NCBI GenBank assembly: GCA_963736115.1
Contig: CAVTNR010000014.1
Location: forward strand, 208,371-272,370
Source: an uncultured bacterium
Lineage (GTDB): Bacteria > Zhuqueibacterota > QNDG01 > DTFT01
DNA: 64,000 nucleotides
Direction of reading: 5' to 3'
Positions 8,067 through 50,409 of this stretch are shown here, one piece after another. The notes beneath the pieces are model-generated. The model worked only from the letters and a program-made list of their open reading frames with translations, did not search any database and had not been told where the DNA came from. A program made the position numbers and the translations under genes. Positions within the stretch are counted from its first letter, which is position 1. Every line of letters starts with the position of its first letter.

Positions 8067-8261
8067 GGTTCCGGGTTCCGAGTTCCGGATTGATGATCGA
8101 GGGGTGGTGTCATCCCCACATTCTTCAAGCGGGGATCCAGGGTGGGGTGGGAGATAACATATCCTTGCGAAAACGGGCATATTCAAACTTGCATCCTGGG
8201 ATCATGAACTGGAACTCGGAATCCGGAACACGTAACTCTTTTCTTCTTTGAACTTTGAACT
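8067..8261. repeat. Inverted heptamer tandem-repeat cassette (RGTTCCG)n ... (CGGAACN)n with an internal hairpin
   Basis: GGTTCCG GGTTCCG AGTTCCG at 8067-8087; TGGAACT CGGAATC CGGAACA CGTAACT at 8210-8237; TTGAACT x2 at 8248-8261; GTCATCCCC...GGGGATCCAG hairpin at 8109-8140. Confidence 0.6.
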
Positions 8262-16915: not shown

Positions 16916-17039
16916 AGTTCATAGTTGATGGTTCATTGTTCATAGTTAAATACGTAATCTGGAGTTTCATTTATTCTTTTTCAAACTATGAACCATGAAC
17001 TATGAACCATGAACTTTTTTTATCTATGAACTATGAACT
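16916..17039. repeat. Inverted heptamer tandem-repeat cassette (NGTTCAT)n ... (ATGAACY)n
   Basis: Five NGTTCAT-like units at 16916-16950; ATGAACY x4 at 16988-17015 and x2 at 17026-17039. Confidence 0.85.
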
Positions 17040-17938
17040 TCTTTGACGACTTGATTCCTCAGCGTCCCCAGACCGTCGATCTCGATTTCGATCACGTCGC
17101 CCGGGCCGATGGGGGAGACGCCTTCGGGCGTACCCGTGGCGATCACGTCGCCGGGCTGAAGCGTCATATACTTTGAGACAGCGGAAACCAGGCGTTCGAC
17201 CGGGAAAATCATGGAAGCGGTGCTGGCCTGTTGTTTGGTCTCTCCGTTCACCGTGAGGCGGATGTTCAGCCGGTTGGGATCGGGCACGTCTTCGGCAGGC
17301 ACGAAATAGGGCCCCATTGGGCAGAATGTGTCGATGCTCTTCGACCGGAACCACGGGTTCCCGGCCGCGATATCCTCCTTCTGCAAGGCCCTGGCGGTGA
17401 CGTCGTTGACGATGCTGTATCCGGCGACATAATCAAGCGCTTCCGCTTCCGAAACGTTCCGGCACGGTTTTCCGATGACGAGCGCCAGCTCCGCCTCGTG
17501 ATCGACTCGGGAATCGAGCCAGTCGGGAATGACGATGCCGGTTTCGTGCGGGATGAGCGCTGAAGGCGACTTGCAGAAAAAAACGGGCTCGGTCGGGATT
17601 TCGTGCTGAAGTTCCCGTACATGGGCCAGATAGTTGCGGCCGATGGCCACGATCTTGGATGGACGCTGGATCGGAAGACCGAATTCGAATTCCTGCGGCA
17701 GGCGGAGATCAGCGGATTTCGCGCGGACCCACGGATCTTCCATGATTTTGCGGATGGCGGAGGCGGATCCGTAACCCAGTTCCACCATTACCTGGATAAA
17801 AGCGAAGGTAACCGGCTGTCTGACCCGTTTGGCCTGTTGGTAAATCTCAAAAGCGGCGGTGAGATTGAACGGTCCTTCCGGTGTTTCAACCCCGATACCG
17901 AATGAGCCATTGGGCAATTGGAAAGAAAAGAGTCGCAC
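17024..17938 (-). CDS. Fumarylacetoacetate hydrolase family protein
   Basis: IGRNYLAH, DHEAELA, NDVTAR and GDVIATGTPEGV motifs. Confidence 0.9.
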   Translation of the reverse strand: MRLFSFQLPNGSFGIGVETPEGPFNLTAAFEIYQQAKRVRQPVTFAFIQVMVELGYGSASAIRKIMEDPWVRAKSADLRLPQEFEFGLPIQRPSKIVAIGRNYLAHVRELQHEIPTEPVFFCKSPSALIPHETGIVIPDWLDSRVDHEAELALVIGKPCRNVSEAEALDYVAGYSIVNDVTARALQKEDIAAGNPWFRSKSIDTFCPMGPYFVPAEDVPDPNRLNIRLTVNGETKQQASTASMIFPVERLVSAVSKYMTLQPGDVIATGTPEGVSPIGPGDVIEIEIDGLGTLRNQVVKEVHSS

Positions 17939-20044: not shown

Positions 20045-20142
20045 GGTTCATAGTTTCATTGTTCATAGTTAAAAAAAATTATCGGCTTTCCCGACCCTTC
20101 TTTTTCTATGAACTATGAACAATGAACTATGAACTGTGAAAG
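20045..20142. repeat. Second copy of the (NGTTCAT)n ... (ATGAACN)n inverted heptamer cassette
   Basis: GGTTCAT AGTTTCAT TGTTCAT AGTTAAA at 20045-20073; ATGAACT ATGAACA ATGAACT ATGAACT at 20108-20135. Confidence 0.85.
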
Positions 20143-26280: not shown

Positions 26281-27966
26281 ATGTCGAAGAACATCGCTTT
26301 TTTTGCGGCGTCGATCTTGATGGCTGCCGCAGTCATGTTCCTGTCCGTTTCCGCCGTCGGCCAGACCCGCCTGACCTGCGTCGGCAACAGCATCACTGAG
26401 GGAGCCGGTTTGAGCAATCCCCAGACGGACAGTTATCCGGCCCAGGCCGCGGCCATGCTGGGTTCGACCTGGTCCATCCGTAATGCGGGCGTCTCCGGCC
26501 GCACCATGCTGAAGCAGGGTGACTATCCCCTCTGGGTGGAAACCAAGTTCAATCAGGGGCTGAACTTCAATCCCGACACAGTCACCATCTGCCTCGGGAC
26601 CAATGACAGCAAACCGTACAACTGGGTCTACAAGGACCAGTTCACCGCCGACTATGCGGCGATGATCGATACCTTCCGGGCGCAACCCGCCGGTCCGCTT
26701 GTCTATGTCTGCATCCCGCCCCCGGCTTTCAGCCCGGCATACGACATCAGCGACTCGGTTCTCACGAACGACATAATCCCCATGATCCGGCAGACCGCCG
26801 CAGACAAGGACTGCCCGATCATTGATTTCCGCGCGCCCCTGCTGGGCCGTCCGGATCTGCTGCCGGACGGGATCCATCCCAATATCGAGGGATCCGGGAT
26901 CATGGCCAAGGTGCTCTGGGAAACGATGACCGGACGGAGCATCGTACGGGTGAAGGACGAAGACGCGGCCGCGGGCCGGCCCGTTGCTGCAAGCGGCTCC
27001 GTCGATCCGGCTCTATACGGCGCTGCCAACCTGGTGGACGCAGATGACCGGACTTTCTGGGTCGCAGTCGGATTCCCCTCGCAGGTCGTGGTGGATCTGG
27101 GTTCCGTCCAGACGGTCGACCTGTTCCGGGTGGGATTCGGTGACGCGGCCGGAACGGGTCTCGGCTACACGGTCGAAACCGCCGTCGCATCCGGCGTCTG
27201 GTCCGAAGCCGTGGACCGGTCCTCGCGGACCGACACCGCGGCCGTGGCGCTCGACCAGACGGATCCGGTCCAGGCTCGGTACGTGCGGCTCACCGTGACC
27301 GGCGCGTCCCATCCGGACGGCGACACGGTCCGCGTATCGGACTTCCGTGTGCTCAAGGAGAACGGAAGCGCGCATGCGCCTGTGTTCTACACCCGCCGGA
27401 CGTCCACGACGGCCACGACCATGAAATTCGATGTTCATCTGGTTTATCCGAACGGGGCGGATGGATGCAGCATGTTCTTCAAGCAGGCCGGGGAGGACGC
27501 GGCATACACGGCGCTGTGGGGATTCAAAGCAGGCGCTGACTACCGGTACCGGGACACGATCCGGCTCGGCAAGAAGAACGGATATTTCGCGATCTCCTTC
27601 CGCGACGGCGTGGAGGTGGTTTCGGACACGGTCTGGGCGGAAGCCAGGACGAGCGGCGTGGAGGAGAGCCGGGAGAGCTCGAAGCCGTCCCGATGCGTTC
27701 TGCACGAAGCCTACCCCAATCCCTTCAACCCCAGCACAACCGTGACCTGGGAACTCCCGCGTCCTGCGGATGCGTCTGTCCGCGTATTCGATGTGAGCGG
27801 TCGTGAGGTGGCGGCTCTGGCGAACGGGCCCGCGGATGCAGGCAGACACCGTACGATATGGAACGGACAGGATGCATCCGGACATCTCGTCCCAGCGGGC
27901 GTTTACATTGTGCGTTTGTTTGCGGACGGAGCTGCGCAAAGCAGGAAAATCGTACTGGTGAAGTAA
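26281..27966 (+). CDS. Secreted SGNH/GDSL esterase + discoidin (F5/8, CBM32-like) + FlgD-Ig/T9SS-like C-terminal domain
   Basis: GNSITEG, NAGVSG, LGTND, DGIHP; ARYVRL; YPNPFNP...RKIVLVK tail. Confidence 0.88.
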   Translation: MSKNIAFFAASILMAAAVMFLSVSAVGQTRLTCVGNSITEGAGLSNPQTDSYPAQAAAMLGSTWSIRNAGVSGRTMLKQGDYPLWVETKFNQGLNFNPDTVTICLGTNDSKPYNWVYKDQFTADYAAMIDTFRAQPAGPLVYVCIPPPAFSPAYDISDSVLTNDIIPMIRQTAADKDCPIIDFRAPLLGRPDLLPDGIHPNIEGSGIMAKVLWETMTGRSIVRVKDEDAAAGRPVAASGSVDPALYGAANLVDADDRTFWVAVGFPSQVVVDLGSVQTVDLFRVGFGDAAGTGLGYTVETAVASGVWSEAVDRSSRTDTAAVALDQTDPVQARYVRLTVTGASHPDGDTVRVSDFRVLKENGSAHAPVFYTRRTSTTATTMKFDVHLVYPNGADGCSMFFKQAGEDAAYTALWGFKAGADYRYRDTIRLGKKNGYFAISFRDGVEVVSDTVWAEARTSGVEESRESSKPSRCVLHEAYPNPFNPSTTVTWELPRPADASVRVFDVSGREVAALANGPADAGRHRTIWNGQDASGHLVPAGVYIVRLFADGAAQSRKIVLVK

Positions 27967-28118
27967 AGCACCAAGCACAAAGCATAGAGCTTCAGTCAGT
28001 GATTTGAAGAATATCTGAGAGTTGGGATTGCTTCGATCGGGAGTCCAGAAGCCTGGTCATTCTGGTTCCAGTTTTCCTGGATGATCGAAGATTGGGTTTC
28101 TGACCGCTCCGACGGGTC

Positions 28119-28328
28119 GGATTCTCCGGCCCCGCGATGCGGGAACAAGCTGCAGATGCGGGCTAATGAAGACTTCGCCGGACCCAGTAATGAGATTTGT
28201 TCATTAGTGAAGGCCCTCCGCTTGTCTTCAACAAGCAGGGATATAATAGCTTGATCCCGCAAAGCGGGGCCTTCAAACAGAAGCCATATAAAAGATTGGT
28301 CCCGCGAAGCGGGCGACGGAGTTCTTCA
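28119..28328 (-). mobile_element. GCAAGC-hairpin element carrying four nested ~44 bp mini-units
   Basis: Removing units 28270-28313, 28225-28268 and 28125-28213 (itself containing 28130-28172) leaves TGAAGAACTCCGTCG-C-CAAGCGGAGGG-GAATCC, similar to the 5' end of the element at 50161. Confidence 0.6.
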
Positions 28329-28380
28329 TTATCGAAAGGCCTGGATTCGGATTGGATCGGATCCGGGCCTTTTTATGTGT

Positions 28381-30090
28381 TTACCGCGCCGTTTTCCCTA
28401 TCACCCGGAAATTGAATTCGTACGAGAGACTGCGGCTCCAATTTTCGTCGAACAGCGTGTTGAACCGCGTCCCGTCATTGGGGCCCACGGGCTTGCCGTA
28501 CGTGAAGAACCAGTTGATCACCGGGCTTCCTGAATAGCACAGCACCATCCAGTACCGTCCGGCCGCCAGTTCCGGGGCGCGCCCGGAGAAAGCGAAATCC
28601 ATCCAGTCGTAGCCCGCGGCCGGTTTCATGGATCCGACAGGGATCAGGTCGCTCGTTTCAATGAGACCGCCGGGTTTTCCCGCTCCGTCGTCCCGAAGCA
28701 CTTCCAGCCAGAGACTGCCCGATCCCCCGAACGGGTGCAGGGCGAGTCCGATTTGCTCGATCCGCATGGGCCGGTTCAGAATAAAGGTCTGTGCGTACCG
28801 CTCGCCGCGGCCGGTGACGTATTCCGCGGTTTCCACCACGAAGCTCCGGTTGATTGTGAACTCATCGTCCGAGCCGGAACCCCGGGCCTGCCGGAATCCG
28901 GAGAAATCCTCGCCCCTGGGATATTCCAGATTGCCCGTCGTGTCCGGCATGCTAAAATCCGGACGATCGGCCGGAACCGGTTCCGCGACCGGAGCGGCTT
29001 CCTGTTCGGGGACGAATGCGACATTTTCGAACCCGGCTTCGACGGCCGGTGAGAATAGCAGTTTTTTCGGACCGTAGGACTGCCGCGCGGCGAAGAGATC
29101 CACCCGGTCCTGAACGAACTCGGCGTCCACAATCTCCTGGAACAACGGCATTTGAAGGCTGCCGGGGGAGCGTTTCCAGCGGATGGAACCGTCATTGACG
29201 GTCTCTTCGTTGTCCAGGCCGGTTTCCACCCGGATGAAACGGTTGCTCACGAACAGTTCGCTCTGCTGGGGGTCGAAGGGCACCCACCCGAGGTCCGGGA
29301 AATACACCTCGATCCAGGAATGCCGGCCCTGGGCCATGCGCATGGCGAATGTCCCGCCGGACATTTTCATATCATAGGGTTGTTTCAGCGTCACGCCGTT
29401 CACGATCCGGACGGGAATGCCGACGGCGCGCATCATCGTCGCGGCCAGATGGCTGTAGTTCTGGCAGTTGCCTTTTCCTGTTTTCAGGGACCAGACGGCG
29501 TCGTAACGCTCCGGATTCTGGACGTAATTCACGCGGTCCACGAGCCAGGAGAGAATGCGCTGGACCGCGTCGAATTCGGTCCGGCTGGATGCGGTCAGGC
29601 GGCGCGCCTGCTTCAGAATTTCCGGGTGCGCGCTGGGTATCATCTTGGTGGGTTGAAGGTAAGGCCGGACATCCGGAGCGAGGCCGGTCAGGGGAAAGGG
29701 CGCCGACGCCTTCAGGGGTTTCAGGTCCGTCCGATTGACGGCTGTGCAGGTCAGGGTCGCGCGGACCGTGTTCCGCGGATTTTCCCATTCCACTTCAAGG
29801 ATCTCATTGCCTCTTGAATCGATCCGGTTTTTCCTCGAAGACGGCGGGACCGAGAAACGGATATCAAAATCCCGGATGACCTGGGTATAGCCGGGGGAAG
29901 TAAAACTTTTCGGCGTCACATAACTCATCACGAGCCGCGATACGCCGTCTCCCGGCATGAAATTCTGGGTCATGACATAGCGGATCTCGGAGGACTGACC
30001 GCCGTTGAGAAGATACTGCTCGGCATATCCTGCGGAGCAGAACGCGAGCATCCAGGCTATCAGCAGGTTCAGTCTCATGGGGTCTCCCAT
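28381..30090 (-). CDS. Secreted transglutaminase-like domain protein
   Basis: GNCQNYSHL, GIPVRIVNG and HSWIEVYFPDLGWVPFDP (Cys-His-Asp); signal peptide; start may be 30078. Confidence 0.88.
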   Translation of the reverse strand: MGDPMRLNLLIAWMLAFCSAGYAEQYLLNGGQSSEIRYVMTQNFMPGDGVSRLVMSYVTPKSFTSPGYTQVIRDFDIRFSVPPSSRKNRIDSRGNEILEVEWENPRNTVRATLTCTAVNRTDLKPLKASAPFPLTGLAPDVRPYLQPTKMIPSAHPEILKQARRLTASSRTEFDAVQRILSWLVDRVNYVQNPERYDAVWSLKTGKGNCQNYSHLAATMMRAVGIPVRIVNGVTLKQPYDMKMSGGTFAMRMAQGRHSWIEVYFPDLGWVPFDPQQSELFVSNRFIRVETGLDNEETVNDGSIRWKRSPGSLQMPLFQEIVDAEFVQDRVDLFAARQSYGPKKLLFSPAVEAGFENVAFVPEQEAAPVAEPVPADRPDFSMPDTTGNLEYPRGEDFSGFRQARGSGSDDEFTINRSFVVETAEYVTGRGERYAQTFILNRPMRIEQIGLALHPFGGSGSLWLEVLRDDGAGKPGGLIETSDLIPVGSMKPAAGYDWMDFAFSGRAPELAAGRYWMVLCYSGSPVINWFFTYGKPVGPNDGTRFNTLFDENWSRSLSYEFNFRVIGKTAR

Positions 30091-30479: not shown

Positions 30480-30606
30480 TTGAAGCTGCCCGCGGCCCGT
30501 CCCGCATCGCGGGGCCGGGGAATCTTCTATCTGTAGAGAACAGACTATTTATATTCGCTCGCTTACCCCGGGGCAAGCCCCGGGGTAAGCGCTCGCTGAC
30601 AGATTC
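30480..30606 (+). mobile_element. MITE-like two-hairpin element (copy with intact second hairpin)
   Basis: Shares TTGAAGCT, GAATCTTCTATCTGTAGAGAA, ATATTCGCTCGCT and GCGCTCGCTG.CAGATTC with 50161-50409; CCCCGGGGCAAGCCCCGGGG at 30566-30585. Confidence 0.75.
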
Positions 30607-30644
30607 AAGGAGGGAGGCCTTGACCAGCGGACGCGGATGGAAGG

Positions 30645-49982: not shown

Positions 49983-50125
49983 GTCGGCCGGCCGACAGAT
50001 CTTCAGACTCCGCGCGAAGCTCGGAGTCTGATAATCTAAAACAGGTCGGCACCGGAGTGCCGACTCGTTGATCAGCGGCCTATGGCCGCTGATCAACGCC
50101 ACCCGCTTCGCGGGTGGTAGTTTAC
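49983..50125. repeat. Cluster of five REP-like palindromes
   Basis: Hairpins at 49983-49996, 50003-50031, 50045-50064, 50066-50098 and 50099-50117; the last is followed by TAGTTTAC. Confidence 0.7.
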
Positions 50126-50160
50126 TCCGGAGCGGGTGAGCCGAAGTCTTCGCGCGCGCA

Positions 50161-50409
50161 TTGAAGCTCCCCGCCGCCCGCTGCGCGGGACCAATTTATT
50201 ATATTTTTAGAGTATTGAAGGCAAGCGGCGGGCCTTCAATAGTGAACAGATCAAATAACTTGGTGCCGCTTTGCGGCGAATCTTCTATCTGTAGAGAAGA
50301 GACATCTGATATTCGCTCGCTAACCCCGCGGCCCGCTGCGCGGGATCAAGCGATCATATTTTCGAATTATTGAAGACAAGCCGCGGGGAATGCGCTCGCT
50401 GTCAGATTC
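50161..50409 (+). mobile_element. MITE-like two-hairpin element with three nested 45 bp mini-units
   Basis: Homologous to 30480-30606; units at 50177-50221 (+), 50233-50277 (-) and 50332-50376 (+); deleting them restores two perfect GCAAGC hairpins. Confidence 0.8.

What the first reader, a model, noticed from the sequence alone, without database searches (positions are those of the whole stretch)
28119..28328. Second locus of the same mini-element: four units, tandem and nested inside each other
Seen in sequence: units at 28270-28313 (-) and 28225-28268 (-) are stacked, 1 nt apart, at the CAAG site. Unit 28125-28213 (+) is inverted at GGG^GAATC, and its own hairpin TCCGGC-TTC-GCCGGA is split by a fourth unit, 28130-28172. 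The two insertion positions match those at 50.2 kb. The cores are diverged relatives rather than unrelated spacers: GTAATGAGATTTGTTCATTA matches the 50233-50277 core at 15 of 20 positions. Inference: repeated, hairpin-directed insertion over time, including into the unit's own hairpin.
Basis: partly seen in the sequence, partly recalled or inferred. Interest (0 to 1): 0.75.

Follow-up and report, generated by a model that had tools for sequence, protein, structure and literature searches.

The report
Nested hairpin-homing 44-nt mobile repeats
This intergenic block is a Russian-doll stack of tiny (42-45 nt) hairpin-carrying repeats that insert into the loops and feet of other DNA hairpins, an unusually small mobile element whose enzyme is still unknown.

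Summary
The repeated DNA runs further left than reported, spanning 28032-28328.

The unit is YCTTCAA, an AT-rich core, CTTGRT, then a 5-bp GC hairpin. A relaxed scan finds 134 copies in this 3.3 Mb genome against 1 in a reversed-genome control. A strict pattern finds 34-85 copies in each of the four genomes of the genus, 1-15 in five other genomes of the order, and 0 in 32 others.

After excising units, 66 of 135 junctions lie at the 3' edge of a hairpin loop and 22 at a hairpin's 3' foot. The mirror orientation gives 9 and 3. There is no target duplication and there are no terminal inverted repeats.

Unfilled sites exist:
- 55 hairpins with an empty CTTG loop in this genome.
- An exact 44(+1) nt gap in copies of a host element in a different family's genome.
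- Both window loci lack the mosaics in the congeners.

Three sub-lineages each use their own kind of site, and this locus contains all three.

Cores are diverged relatives, not spacers. My best reading is a non-autonomous, structure-directed single-strand DNA element moved in trans by an HUH-type enzyme. That enzyme was not identified.

The parts
28032..28124 (+). Base module 'B2', with a long-range GC helix. It is the 5' part of the host element that ends in the CTTG-loop hairpin.
   Evidence: 39-44 paralogous alignments cover 28036-28128. A motif count finds 44 copies. Examples appear.
28125..28213 (-). Host unit, sub-lineage iii (CCGGC-type hairpin). It lies at the hairpin-foot site between GGG and GAATC. 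Its own hairpin, 28125-28130 paired with 28177-28182, is interrupted.
   Evidence: Paralogs without this unit join GGG directly to GAAT, for example the flank of C9:39656. In one search, 15 of 17 CCGGC-hairpin units and 6 of 6 GCCGC-hairpin units are at foot sites.
28131..28172 (-). Inner 42-43 nt unit, sub-lineage ii (ATCTG core). It is inserted after GAAG in the loop of the host unit's hairpin. Its head and tail are slightly degenerate.
   Evidence: 21 alignments end at 28128 and 22 start at 28173. The empty form of this hairpin is visible at C14:~125940. In one search, 21 of 27 units of this sub-lineage lie in NNAG loops.
28214..28224 (+). 5' arm plus CTTG loop of the base element's hairpin. 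This is the insertion site.
   Evidence: One search finds 55 empty hairpins of this kind in the genome.
28225..28269 (+). Unit of sub-lineage i, T...A type, 44 nt plus 1 nt. It is the first of two units stacked in the CTTG loop.
   Evidence: 48 alignments end at 28268.
28270..28313 (+). Unit of sub-lineage i, C...G type, 44 nt. It is the second unit of the stack.
28314..28330 (+). 3' arm of the base hairpin (CGACGGAG, paired with 28216-28220), followed by the TTCTTCAT tail that ends base elements.
   Evidence: Repeat coverage ends at 28328.
28335..28372 (.). GC hairpin next to a T-run. It looks like a terminator serving both convergent genes, and is not part of the mosaic. It is conserved in the congeners and marks the boundary of the insertion.
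   Evidence: inverted repeat I3. One search shows the same hairpin in L005 and L006.
50160..50409 (-). Sister locus: a 'B1' base element with two loop-site units and one foot-site unit.
   Evidence: It is absent from the orthologous intergenic region in all three congeners.
30500..30607 (-). A third base element (B1) in the window. One of its CTTG/CAAG hairpins is empty, giving an in-window example of an unfilled site.

Best explanation
The block is a mosaic of non-autonomous mini mobile elements nested in one another.

Shown:
- A 42-45 nt unit behaves as one discrete insertion module. It consists of the head YCTTCAA, an AT-rich variable core, CTTGRT, and a 5-bp GC hairpin with a 3-nt loop.
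- It always enters in one polarity, head next to the loop, at one of two places. One is the 3' edge of a GC hairpin loop, after YTTG or NNAG. The other is the 3' foot of a hairpin, between GGG and GAAT.
- It makes no target duplication and has no terminal inverted repeats.
- Three sub-lineages each prefer one kind of site, which produces the nesting.

Inferred:
- The unit moves as single-stranded DNA.
- Its own hairpin is the handle that a trans-acting HUH-type nuclease/ligase recognises. That enzyme would be a RAYT-like Y1 enzyme or an IS200/IS605- or IS91-like one.
- The enzyme cuts 3' of a G-ending motif exposed in an extruded hairpin, and joins the unit there.
- Position 1 (Y) and the R of CTTGRT are held complementary. 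This may bring the unit's 5' end to the foot of its hairpin, where the 3' end also lies.

The responsible gene was not identified. Composites, once formed, are also copied as wholes.

The confidence given covers the whole statement. I put the shown part, discrete hairpin-directed mobile units, at about 0.85. I put the HUH single-strand mechanism at about 0.4-0.45.
For: Copy number and specificity:
- 134 units against 1 in the reversed genome.
- Strict pattern counts of 85, 53, 50 and 34 in the four congeners; 15, 4, 4, 1 and 1 in five other genomes of the order; 0 in 32 genomes. All controls give 0.

Discreteness:
- 121 of 129 TTGRT-plus-hairpin tails carry a head.

Unfilled sites:
- 55 hairpins with an empty CTTG loop. 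By my reading of the list, about 48 lie in the same base-element contexts as the filled ones.
- Breakpoints at 28128 and 28173.
- In G026, from another family, three copies of a roughly 400 nt element lack exactly the 44 nt unit plus one G. They show no duplication (alignment A1).
- The mosaics are absent from the orthologous sites at 28 kb in 2 of the 2 congeners with an intact locus. They are absent at 50.2 kb in 3 of 3 congeners.

Structure-directed targeting and polarity:
- 66 of 135 excision junctions lie at a loop's 3' edge and 22 of 135 at a 3' foot.
- At random genome positions the figures are 234 and 189 of 3000.
- In the mirror orientation they are 9 and 3 of 135.

Many kinds of host hairpin are used, which argues against simple copying of composites:
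- the hairpins of base elements;
- the hairpins of other units;
- the loops of two REP families that flank RAYT genes.

Sub-lineage and site:
- Units of 43 nt or less: 21 of 27 in NNAG loops and 0 in YTTG loops.
- Units of 44 nt or more: 59 of 103 in YTTG loops and 32 of 103 at feet.
- CCGGC or GCCGC hairpins: 21 of 23 at feet.

Covariation of position 1 with R: C..G 80, T..A 46, T..G 4, C..A 2, and 2 others, out of 134. Identical cores occur in both states.

Selfish-DNA signature:
- 86 of 115 units are intergenic in a genome that is 87% coding by a heuristic gene call.
- There is no bias towards gene direction (29 against 31) or towards any gene arrangement.

HUH precedent: passages read in PMC13181058 state that IS91-family elements make no target duplication. 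They insert next to 5'-CTTG or 5'-GTTC, have subterminal palindromes, and use a single-stranded circle.

Three RAYT genes score above the NCBIfam cut-off in this genome. One of them has 70-77% identical orthologues in all three congeners.
Against: No enzyme is linked to the units.
- None of the 3 RAYT genes here has a unit within the fetched locus of about 1.5 kb on either side. Of the 30 RAYT loci fetched from five relatives, one has a unit, and it is nested in a REP. Each RAYT is flanked by its own GTAG-type REP.
- No TnpB was found.
- No Y2 (IS91-type) transposase was found in any of the four genus genomes. Its presence elsewhere does not follow the units.
- No paralogous gene family with transposase features recurs within 1.5 kb of units.

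The genomes are incomplete (76-96%), so absence is not shown.

Units as a whole show no replication-strand bias (p = 0.85-1.0). I recall that IS200/IS605 elements do show such a bias.

The unit has only one hairpin. IS200/IS605 and IS91 ends carry palindromes at both ends.

The polarity of CTTG relative to the element could not be matched to IS91 from the text I read.

No within-population polymorphism was recovered.

Part of the copy number comes from composites copied whole.
Confidence: 0.55

Rival explanations
1. Enzyme-free spread. Units and modules are shuffled by replication template-switching or illegitimate recombination between similar GC hairpins, and whole composites are then duplicated. 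On this view there is no dedicated transposition reaction.
For: Host and unit hairpins share GC-rich stems, which would favour strand switching. Composites clearly recur: the base module with host unit and inner unit appears, and the same pair of units with a 65-nt gap appears 8 times. No transposase could be linked to the units.
Against: Boundaries are exact to within 1 nt across more than 130 copies and across genomes of different families. Polarity is strict: 66+22 against 9+3. The unit's hairpin usually differs in sequence and loop from the hairpin it interrupts. Head and tail are conserved across the order while cores drift. That pattern suggests recognition of the ends by a conserved factor.
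Confidence: 0.15
2. RNA-mediated spread. Units are transcribed, and their RNA or a cDNA is inserted at hairpins. I recall this being proposed for the cyanobacterial small dispersed repeats.
For: The resemblance is to very small, precisely inserting repeats. PMC4390886 (passage read) cites the precise insertion of SDR5 inside the HIP1 octamer. That those repeats nest, and the RNA proposal itself, are recalled from Elhai et al. 2008, which is not held.
Against: No RVT_1 reverse transcriptase was found in this genome, which is 87% complete. The AT-rich part shows no fold beyond shuffled cores (-1.98 against -1.60 kcal/mol, p = 0.15). It shows no strand asymmetry in G-U pairing either (p = 0.5). 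Unit orientation ignores gene direction.
Confidence: 0.08
3. Functional, host-selected modules rather than mobile DNA. Candidates are terminators or RNA-stabilising hairpins, promoters carrying the TATAAT-like cores, or protein-binding sites.
For: The units are intergenic. Their hairpins are GC-rich and many cores contain TATAAT-like strings. REP elements are known to be put to such uses, which I recall rather than tested.
Against: There is no orientation bias towards neighbouring genes and no preference for convergent, tandem or divergent gaps. Units are absent from the orthologous sites in congeners. Nesting inside other units is hard to explain by function. The distance from the TTCAA-like hexamer to TATAAT is about 9 nt by my own reading, too short for a sigma-70 promoter. 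There is no Rfam match.
Confidence: 0.05
4. Guide or spacer array. The variable roughly 20-nt cores would be target-matching guides, as in CRISPR, omega-RNA or bridge-RNA systems.
For: There is a variable segment between conserved flanks and a hairpin.
Against: Cores are copies of one another: 117 of 130 fall in one cluster, identical cores recur up to 4 times, and cores are 66% AT. Units are dispersed and nested rather than arrayed. No effector gene lies nearby and no TnpB was found. The genome's real CRISPR array is elsewhere and looks different. The block has no phage or plasmid match, though that test has low power for 20-mers.
Confidence: 0.02

Closest known systems
REP / BIME elements with RAYT (Y1 HUH) transposases, including REPINs
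   Same: Both are short, extragenic, hairpin-bearing repeats present in about a hundred or more copies and assembled into mosaics. The genome encodes RAYTs. The motif just 5' of the unit's hairpin (CTTGGTCC...) resembles the GTAGGTCC... start of the REP that flanks the genus-conserved RAYT. That comparison is my own reading.
   Different: The GTAG tetranucleotide is missing. About 31 nt of each unit lie outside the palindrome. Units do not flank any RAYT gene. They are not inverted doublets with matching arms. They insert inside the loops of other hairpins, including the REPs themselves.
IS200/IS605-family elements and their miniature derivatives (PATEs)
   Same: Neither has inverted terminal repeats or target duplications. 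Both show strand polarity and insert 3' of a short specific motif, and both rely on hairpins as recognition handles. The Y...R covariation next to the hairpin foot recalls the guide-to-cleavage-site pairing of that family, which I recall rather than tested.
   Different: The unit has one hairpin, not two. No TnpB, and no Y1 gene with matching ends, was found. Units show no overall replication-strand bias. Their targets are defined by hairpin structure as well as by a motif.
IS91 family (Y2 HUH, rolling-circle)
   Same: Both lack target duplications and inverted repeats and have two dissimilar ends. The 5'-CTTG target, with T at position 2, lies next to one specific end. Both have a subterminal palindrome, and IS91 uses a single-stranded intermediate (PMC13181058, passages read).
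   Different: No Y2 transposase was found in 0 of the 4 genus genomes. The unit is 44 nt against about 1.5-2 kb. The polarity of CTTG relative to the element was not resolved. The hairpin-loop context is not a described requirement for IS91.
Cyanobacterial small dispersed repeats (SDR; Elhai et al. 2008)
   Same: Both are very small dispersed repeats with precise insertion points. The SDR5 insertion in HIP1 is cited in PMC4390886. Self-nesting and an unknown enzyme are features I recall for the SDRs.
   Different: The phylum and the sequences are different. These units are 42-45 nt, against a recalled 21-27 nt. They carry their own GC hairpin, and their target is a hairpin loop or foot.
Elements that home to hairpins: IS1111/IS110 elements in REPs, and group IIC introns behind terminators and attC sites
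   Same: Both choose targets by stem-loop structure and with a fixed orientation. This is recalled. A paper on REPs as IS targets appears in the reference list of PMC3116915.
   Different: Those elements are autonomous, kilobase-sized, and encode their own recombinase or reverse transcriptase. These units encode nothing.

Membership tests
REP/BIME (RAYT-associated) | A conserved GT[AG]G tetranucleotide at the 5' foot of the palindrome | tested here: not met
   All units carry (C/A)TTGRT before the hairpin. The genome's true REPs beside its RAYT genes do carry GTAG.
REP/BIME (RAYT-associated) | Copies flank the cognate RAYT gene | tested here: not met
   0 of 3 RAYT loci in G000 contain a unit. 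Of 30 RAYT loci in five relatives, 1 contains a unit, and it is nested in a REP. Each locus covered only about 1.5 kb on either side.
REP/BIME (RAYT-associated) | Short extragenic palindromic repeats in high copy number, combined into mosaics | tested here: met
   134 copies. 86 of 115 are intergenic. Mosaics of up to about 375 bp.
IS200/IS605-derived miniature elements | No terminal inverted repeats, no target duplication, insertion 3' of a fixed short motif | tested here: met
   Flanks. Exact indel. In one search, the 5' flank is YTTG in 59 of 130 units, GGG in 34 and NNAG-type in 26.
IS200/IS605-derived miniature elements | Subterminal hairpins at both ends, matching a full-length element with TnpA or TnpB in the genome | tested here: not met
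   The unit has a single hairpin at its 3' end. No TnpB domain was found. The only Y1 genes are RAYT-type and have other flanks. The genome is 87% complete.
IS200/IS605-derived miniature elements | Orientation bias relative to replication (a recalled property) | tested here: not met
   Units against GC skew: p = 0.85-1.0. Orientation follows the host hairpin instead. The base modules are biased.
IS91 family derivative | Target tetranucleotide 5'-CTTG or 5'-GTTC next to one end, with no duplication | tested here: met
   51 of 134 units follow CTTG. In G026 the flank is TTTG before the unit and GTTC after it. The family property comes from PMC13181058.
IS91 family derivative | A Y2 HUH transposase present to act in trans | tested here: not met
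   PF04986 was found in 0 of the 4 genus genomes. It is present in 13 of 41 relatives, with no link to unit counts. Genome completeness is 76-96%.
Classical MITE | Terminal inverted repeats and target-site duplication | tested here: not met
   Neither is present.
CRISPR-like or guide array | Regular repeat-spacer array with unique spacers and a linked effector | tested here: not met
   Cores are related and repeated. Units are dispersed and nested. No gene is linked.
Cyanobacterial SDR families | Membership of the named SDR1-8 sequence families | not testable with these tools
   The defining paper is not held. The likeness is in behaviour only.

The most novel reading that the evidence does not exclude
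The units are a previously undescribed class of ultra-small mobile DNA that homes to structure rather than sequence. Each is a 44-nt single-hairpin element that integrates, in one polarity, at the 3' side of hairpin loops or at hairpin feet. Sub-lineages have different site specificities. An enzyme shared across an order of uncultured FCB-group bacteria would move them, and it would be neither a canonical REP-flanked RAYT nor an IS200/IS605 or IS91 transposase. It might be a domesticated or still unrecognised single-strand nuclease/ligase. The Y1-R pairing would act as a built-in device that brings both element ends to the hairpin foot.
Probability: 0.3. Interest if true: 0.8.

Novelty: new variant of a known kind. 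Interest (0 to 1): 0.6.

Why it matters
These would be among the smallest elements with direct evidence of discrete insertion. That evidence is empty and filled sites within one genome and across families.

They also offer a clean natural system for studying how a DNA hairpin can serve as both handle and target. There are three sub-lineages, three kinds of site, and a covarying base pair that can be mutated.

Identifying the enzyme could yield a compact, structure-guided single-strand DNA integrase.

On the practical side, such mosaics account for about 1.3% of this genome as high-copy 14-mers, although that figure also includes a CRISPR array and coding repeats. They are therefore likely to break MAG assemblies and blur intergenic comparisons in this lineage.

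Tried and rejected
- Rfam scans of the locus and of six related loci gave no family. The only hit was a chance match at E = 0.62.
- Phage and plasmid collections gave no match to 28032-28328. This test has low power for 20-nt cores.
- Sequencing runs: only small-share DNA holders were listed, and no RNA holder. The contigs laid from 4 runs were fragments of relatives or of paralogous repeats. They gave no information on polymorphism at this locus.
- AT-rich core as a hairpin: not better than shuffled cores, with no strand asymmetry.
- An alternative parsing in which only the head and core move, and the CTTGRT-hairpin belongs to the target. I rejected it because tails without heads are almost absent (8 of 129, mostly in coding DNA) and the empty sites are plain hairpins.
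- REPIN-like doublets: 17 head-to-head pairs with an 11-nt gap exist. Their cores belong to different subfamilies, and the gap is half of a host hairpin. They are therefore nested insertions.
- A unit-like 44-mer lies inside an integrase ORF beside an IS91-type transposase in G026. A 76% identical homologue has the same length, so this is not an insertion.
- A search of G000 for the conserved blocks of the larger G026-type element found nothing convincing.
- My first two unit scanners were faulty and were replaced by the scanner. The first junction classifiers were too strict, and I use the fold-based test.
- Elhai et al. 2008 is not held.

Full report
**The observation**

The finding lies in the gap between two convergent genes. 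One is a GDSL-lipase with a C-terminal sorting domain that ends at 27966. The other is a transglutaminase-like protein on the minus strand that ends at 28381.

Reading the sequence and the repeat finder confirm the four units.
- Two units lie head to tail at 28225-28268 and 28270-28313. They are 1 nt apart and sit directly after CTTG.
- A third unit lies on the opposite strand. Its TCCGGC/GCCGGA hairpin is split by a fourth unit of 42-43 nt at 28131-28172.

BLAST of 27950-28420 against the whole genome places alignment breakpoints on these edges:
- 21 alignments end at 28128 and 22 start at 28173.
- 25 alignments start at 28214.
- 48 end at 28268 and 25 start at 28269.

The same search shows that the repeated DNA spans 28032-28328.

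**The unit**

The consensus is YCTTCAA, then an AT-rich core of 17-21 nt, then (C/A)TTGRT, then CCCGC-NNN-GCGGG. Some copies have CCGGC or GCCGC stems, and some carry one extra 3' purine.

Copy numbers:
- A strict regex finds 92 copies.
- A relaxed two-anchor scan finds 134, against 1 in the reversed genome.
- A strict pattern across 41 genomes finds 85, 53, 50 and 34 copies in the four genomes of the genus. It finds 15, 4, 4, 1 and 1 in five other genomes of the order and 0 in the remaining 32. The backwards control gives 0 everywhere.

Across genera the head, tail and hairpin are conserved while the cores differ.

Within this genome the cores form a continuum of relatives: 117 of 130 fall in one single-linkage cluster at edit distance 5 or less. 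Cores are 66% AT in a genome that is 60% GC. They are not unique spacers.

**Evidence that the unit is a discrete insertion**

1. Of 129 TTGRT-plus-hairpin tails, 121 have a head at the right distance.

2. The genome holds 55 GC hairpins with an empty CTTG loop. By my reading of the list, about 48 sit in exactly the same base-element contexts as the filled hairpins. Base elements occur with 0, 1 or 2 filled hairpins. One with an empty hairpin lies in the window itself at 30500-30607.

3. The host of the inner unit occurs without it in about 21-22 paralogous alignments. An example is at C14:~125940.

4. In G026, a genome of another family, the unit sits in a roughly 400 nt dispersed element. 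Three copies of that element lack exactly the 44 nt plus one G, with no duplication. The flank reads TTTG before the unit and GTTC after it (alignment A1; flanks).

5. At both window loci the congeners lack the mosaics.
- At the 28 kb locus, G002 and G003 keep the flanking genes (93-94% protein identity for the transglutaminase-like gene) and the GC hairpin next to the gap. They have no repeat units in that gap. Between that hairpin and the lipase stop codon I count 371 nt here and 85 nt in G003. The difference roughly matches the 297-nt mosaic.
- At 50.2 kb the intergenic gap is 87-164 nt in G001-G003, against about 550 nt here.
- The intergenic DNA has diverged too far to fix the boundaries to the base. 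No partial states were found at these two loci.

**Where the units go**

I removed all units and folded the junctions as DNA. 66 of 135 junctions lie at the 3' edge of a hairpin loop and 22 at the 3' foot of a hairpin. For random genome positions the figures are 234 and 189 of 3000. Read in the mirror orientation, the same junctions give 9 and 3. Insertion therefore depends on structure and has a strict polarity.

The hosts are varied:
- base-element hairpins with CTTG loops;
- the GNA loops of other units;
- the loops of two REP families that flank RAYT genes.

Three sub-lineages differ in the sites they use:
- 44-45 nt units with CCCGC hairpins sit after YTTG in loops. This holds for 59 of the 103 units of 44 nt or more.
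- 42-43 nt units with an ATCTG core sit after NNAG loops (21 of 27, and none in YTTG loops).
- Units with CCGGC or GCCGC hairpins sit at the GGG^GAAT foot (21 of 23).

The finding's locus contains one foot-site unit, one NNAG-loop unit inside it, and two YTTG-loop units. It is thus a complete example of the three-tier scheme.

Composites also spread as wholes. The left composite of this locus recurs at C8:~100342 and C12:~423470. A unit pair with a 65-nt gap recurs 8 times. The four units here therefore need not reflect four separate events at this site.

**Other properties**

Position 1 and the R of CTTGRT are complementary in 126 of 134 units: C..G 80, T..A 46, T..G 4, C..A 2, and 2 others. 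Identical cores occur in both states. In the other genera, 24 of 25 units also fit this rule by my reading.

The AT-rich part is not detectably structured and shows no strand asymmetry.

By a heuristic gene call, 86 of 115 units are intergenic in a genome that is 87% coding. They show no preference for gene direction (29 against 31) or for convergent, tandem or divergent gaps.

Units as a whole show no GC-skew bias, but the base modules do (p = 0.04, 0.0016 and 0.015). Unit orientation follows the host hairpin: loop-site units split 28:17 and foot-site units 9:21.

**The search for the engine**

- The genome has three RAYT-type Y1 genes above the NCBIfam cut-off. Each is flanked by its own GTAG-type REP and none by these units.
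- Of 30 RAYT loci fetched from five relatives, the only one with a unit is a REP that carries a nested unit.
- One RAYT (C19) has 70-77% identical orthologues in all three congeners. A second has an orthologue only in G001, and the third has none.
- No TnpB domain, Y2/IS91 transposase or RVT_1 reverse transcriptase was found here. There is one IS110-family gene, not near any unit.
- Y2 transposases are missing from all four genus genomes. They occur in 13 of 41 relatives with no relation to unit counts.
- No gene family with transposase features recurs within 1.5 kb of units. The only recurrent families are large paralogous groups of secreted proteins and signalling proteins.
- All of these genomes are incomplete (76-96%).

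**Mechanism**

The shown properties are:
- one fixed polarity;
- no duplication;
- two dissimilar ends;
- a hairpin at one end;
- insertion 3' of a short G-ending motif exposed in a hairpin;
- sub-lineage-specific sites.

These fit single-strand cut-and-join by an HUH nuclease best.

IS91-family elements share the 5'-CTTG target, the lack of duplication, the subterminal palindromes and a single-stranded circular intermediate (PMC13181058, passages read). I recall that IS200/IS605 and REP/RAYT systems share the hairpin handle and insertion 3' of a motif.

My inferred model is that the unit's hairpin is bound by a trans-acting enzyme. The Y1-R contact would bring the 5' end to the hairpin foot beside the 3' end, and extruded host hairpins would present the target. 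The enzyme is unidentified, so this step remains inference.

**Comparison and novelty**

The system is not a member of the REP/BIME group, because it lacks GTAG and is not flanked by a RAYT gene. It is not a classical MITE, because it has no TIR and no TSD. It is not a CRISPR-like array.

It works like miniature HUH-mobilised elements. It also resembles the cyanobacterial small dispersed repeats in size and precision. The precise SDR5 insertion is cited in PMC4390886, and the nesting of those repeats is recalled.

I rate it a new variant of a known kind. It is a very small, self-nesting element that targets hairpin loops and feet in an uncultured lineage. Named relatives are unclassified MAGs, with Calditrichia as the more distant hits.

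Noticed in passing
window 30500-30607: A third base element ('B1') in the window. One CAAG/CTTG hairpin is empty. The other holds only a solo CCCGC-ATC-GCGGG hairpin, which may be the remnant of a 42-nt unit.
   Followed up: partly
window 16916-17043 and 20055-20136; also 8067-8140: Other repeat families: inverted arrays of heptamers (TATGAAC-like; GTTCCGA-like) that flank short AT-rich or hairpin centres. They are unrelated in sequence to the units.
   Followed up: no
window 49997-50130: Several further perfect or near-perfect GC hairpins lie just upstream of the 50.2 kb mosaic, for example 15-nt arms at 50066-50098. This stretch is also missing from the shorter intergenic regions of the congeners.
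   Followed up: partly
G000:C17:75009-75746, C2:71373-71915, C19:57396-57902 (L001-L003): Three RAYT genes, each flanked by its own REP family. Two have GTAG-type feet. The REP loops are themselves hit by 42-nt units elsewhere in the genome.
   Followed up: partly
G000 base modules B1, B2 and B3, genome-wide: The base modules, unlike the units, are oriented non-randomly relative to GC skew (p = 0.04, 0.0016 and 0.015). This hints at replication-linked insertion or selection.
   Followed up: partly
G026 loci L066-L088; also G023, G005 and G028 (L064-L077): In other genera the unit sits in a conserved, dispersed intergenic element of about 400 nt. That element has a long-range GGCCTTTTTG/CAAAAAGGCC helix and conserved GGGGTGGGCAT and GGTGGAT blocks. 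It has no Rfam match, and its neighbours are unrelated housekeeping genes. A second GC-rich hairpin block is also present or absent between copies.
   Followed up: partly
L091:205-260 (G026:C248): A 44-nt sequence with a unit-like head, the unit's exact CTTGAT tail and its CCCGC hairpin lies inside the N-terminal coding region of a tyrosine-recombinase ORF. That ORF is just upstream of an IS91-type transposase. A homologue in G020 has the same protein length, so this is not a simple insertion. The resemblance is unexplained.
   Followed up: partly
G000:C10:188996-190318: A CRISPR array with 36-nt repeats and unique spacers of about 30-37 nt. It is unrelated to the units.
   Followed up: no
G000 genome-wide: Among ORFs within 1.5 kb of units, the largest paralogous group (18 members) consists of large secreted proteins like the lipase next to this locus. 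This probably just reflects the size of that family.
   Followed up: no
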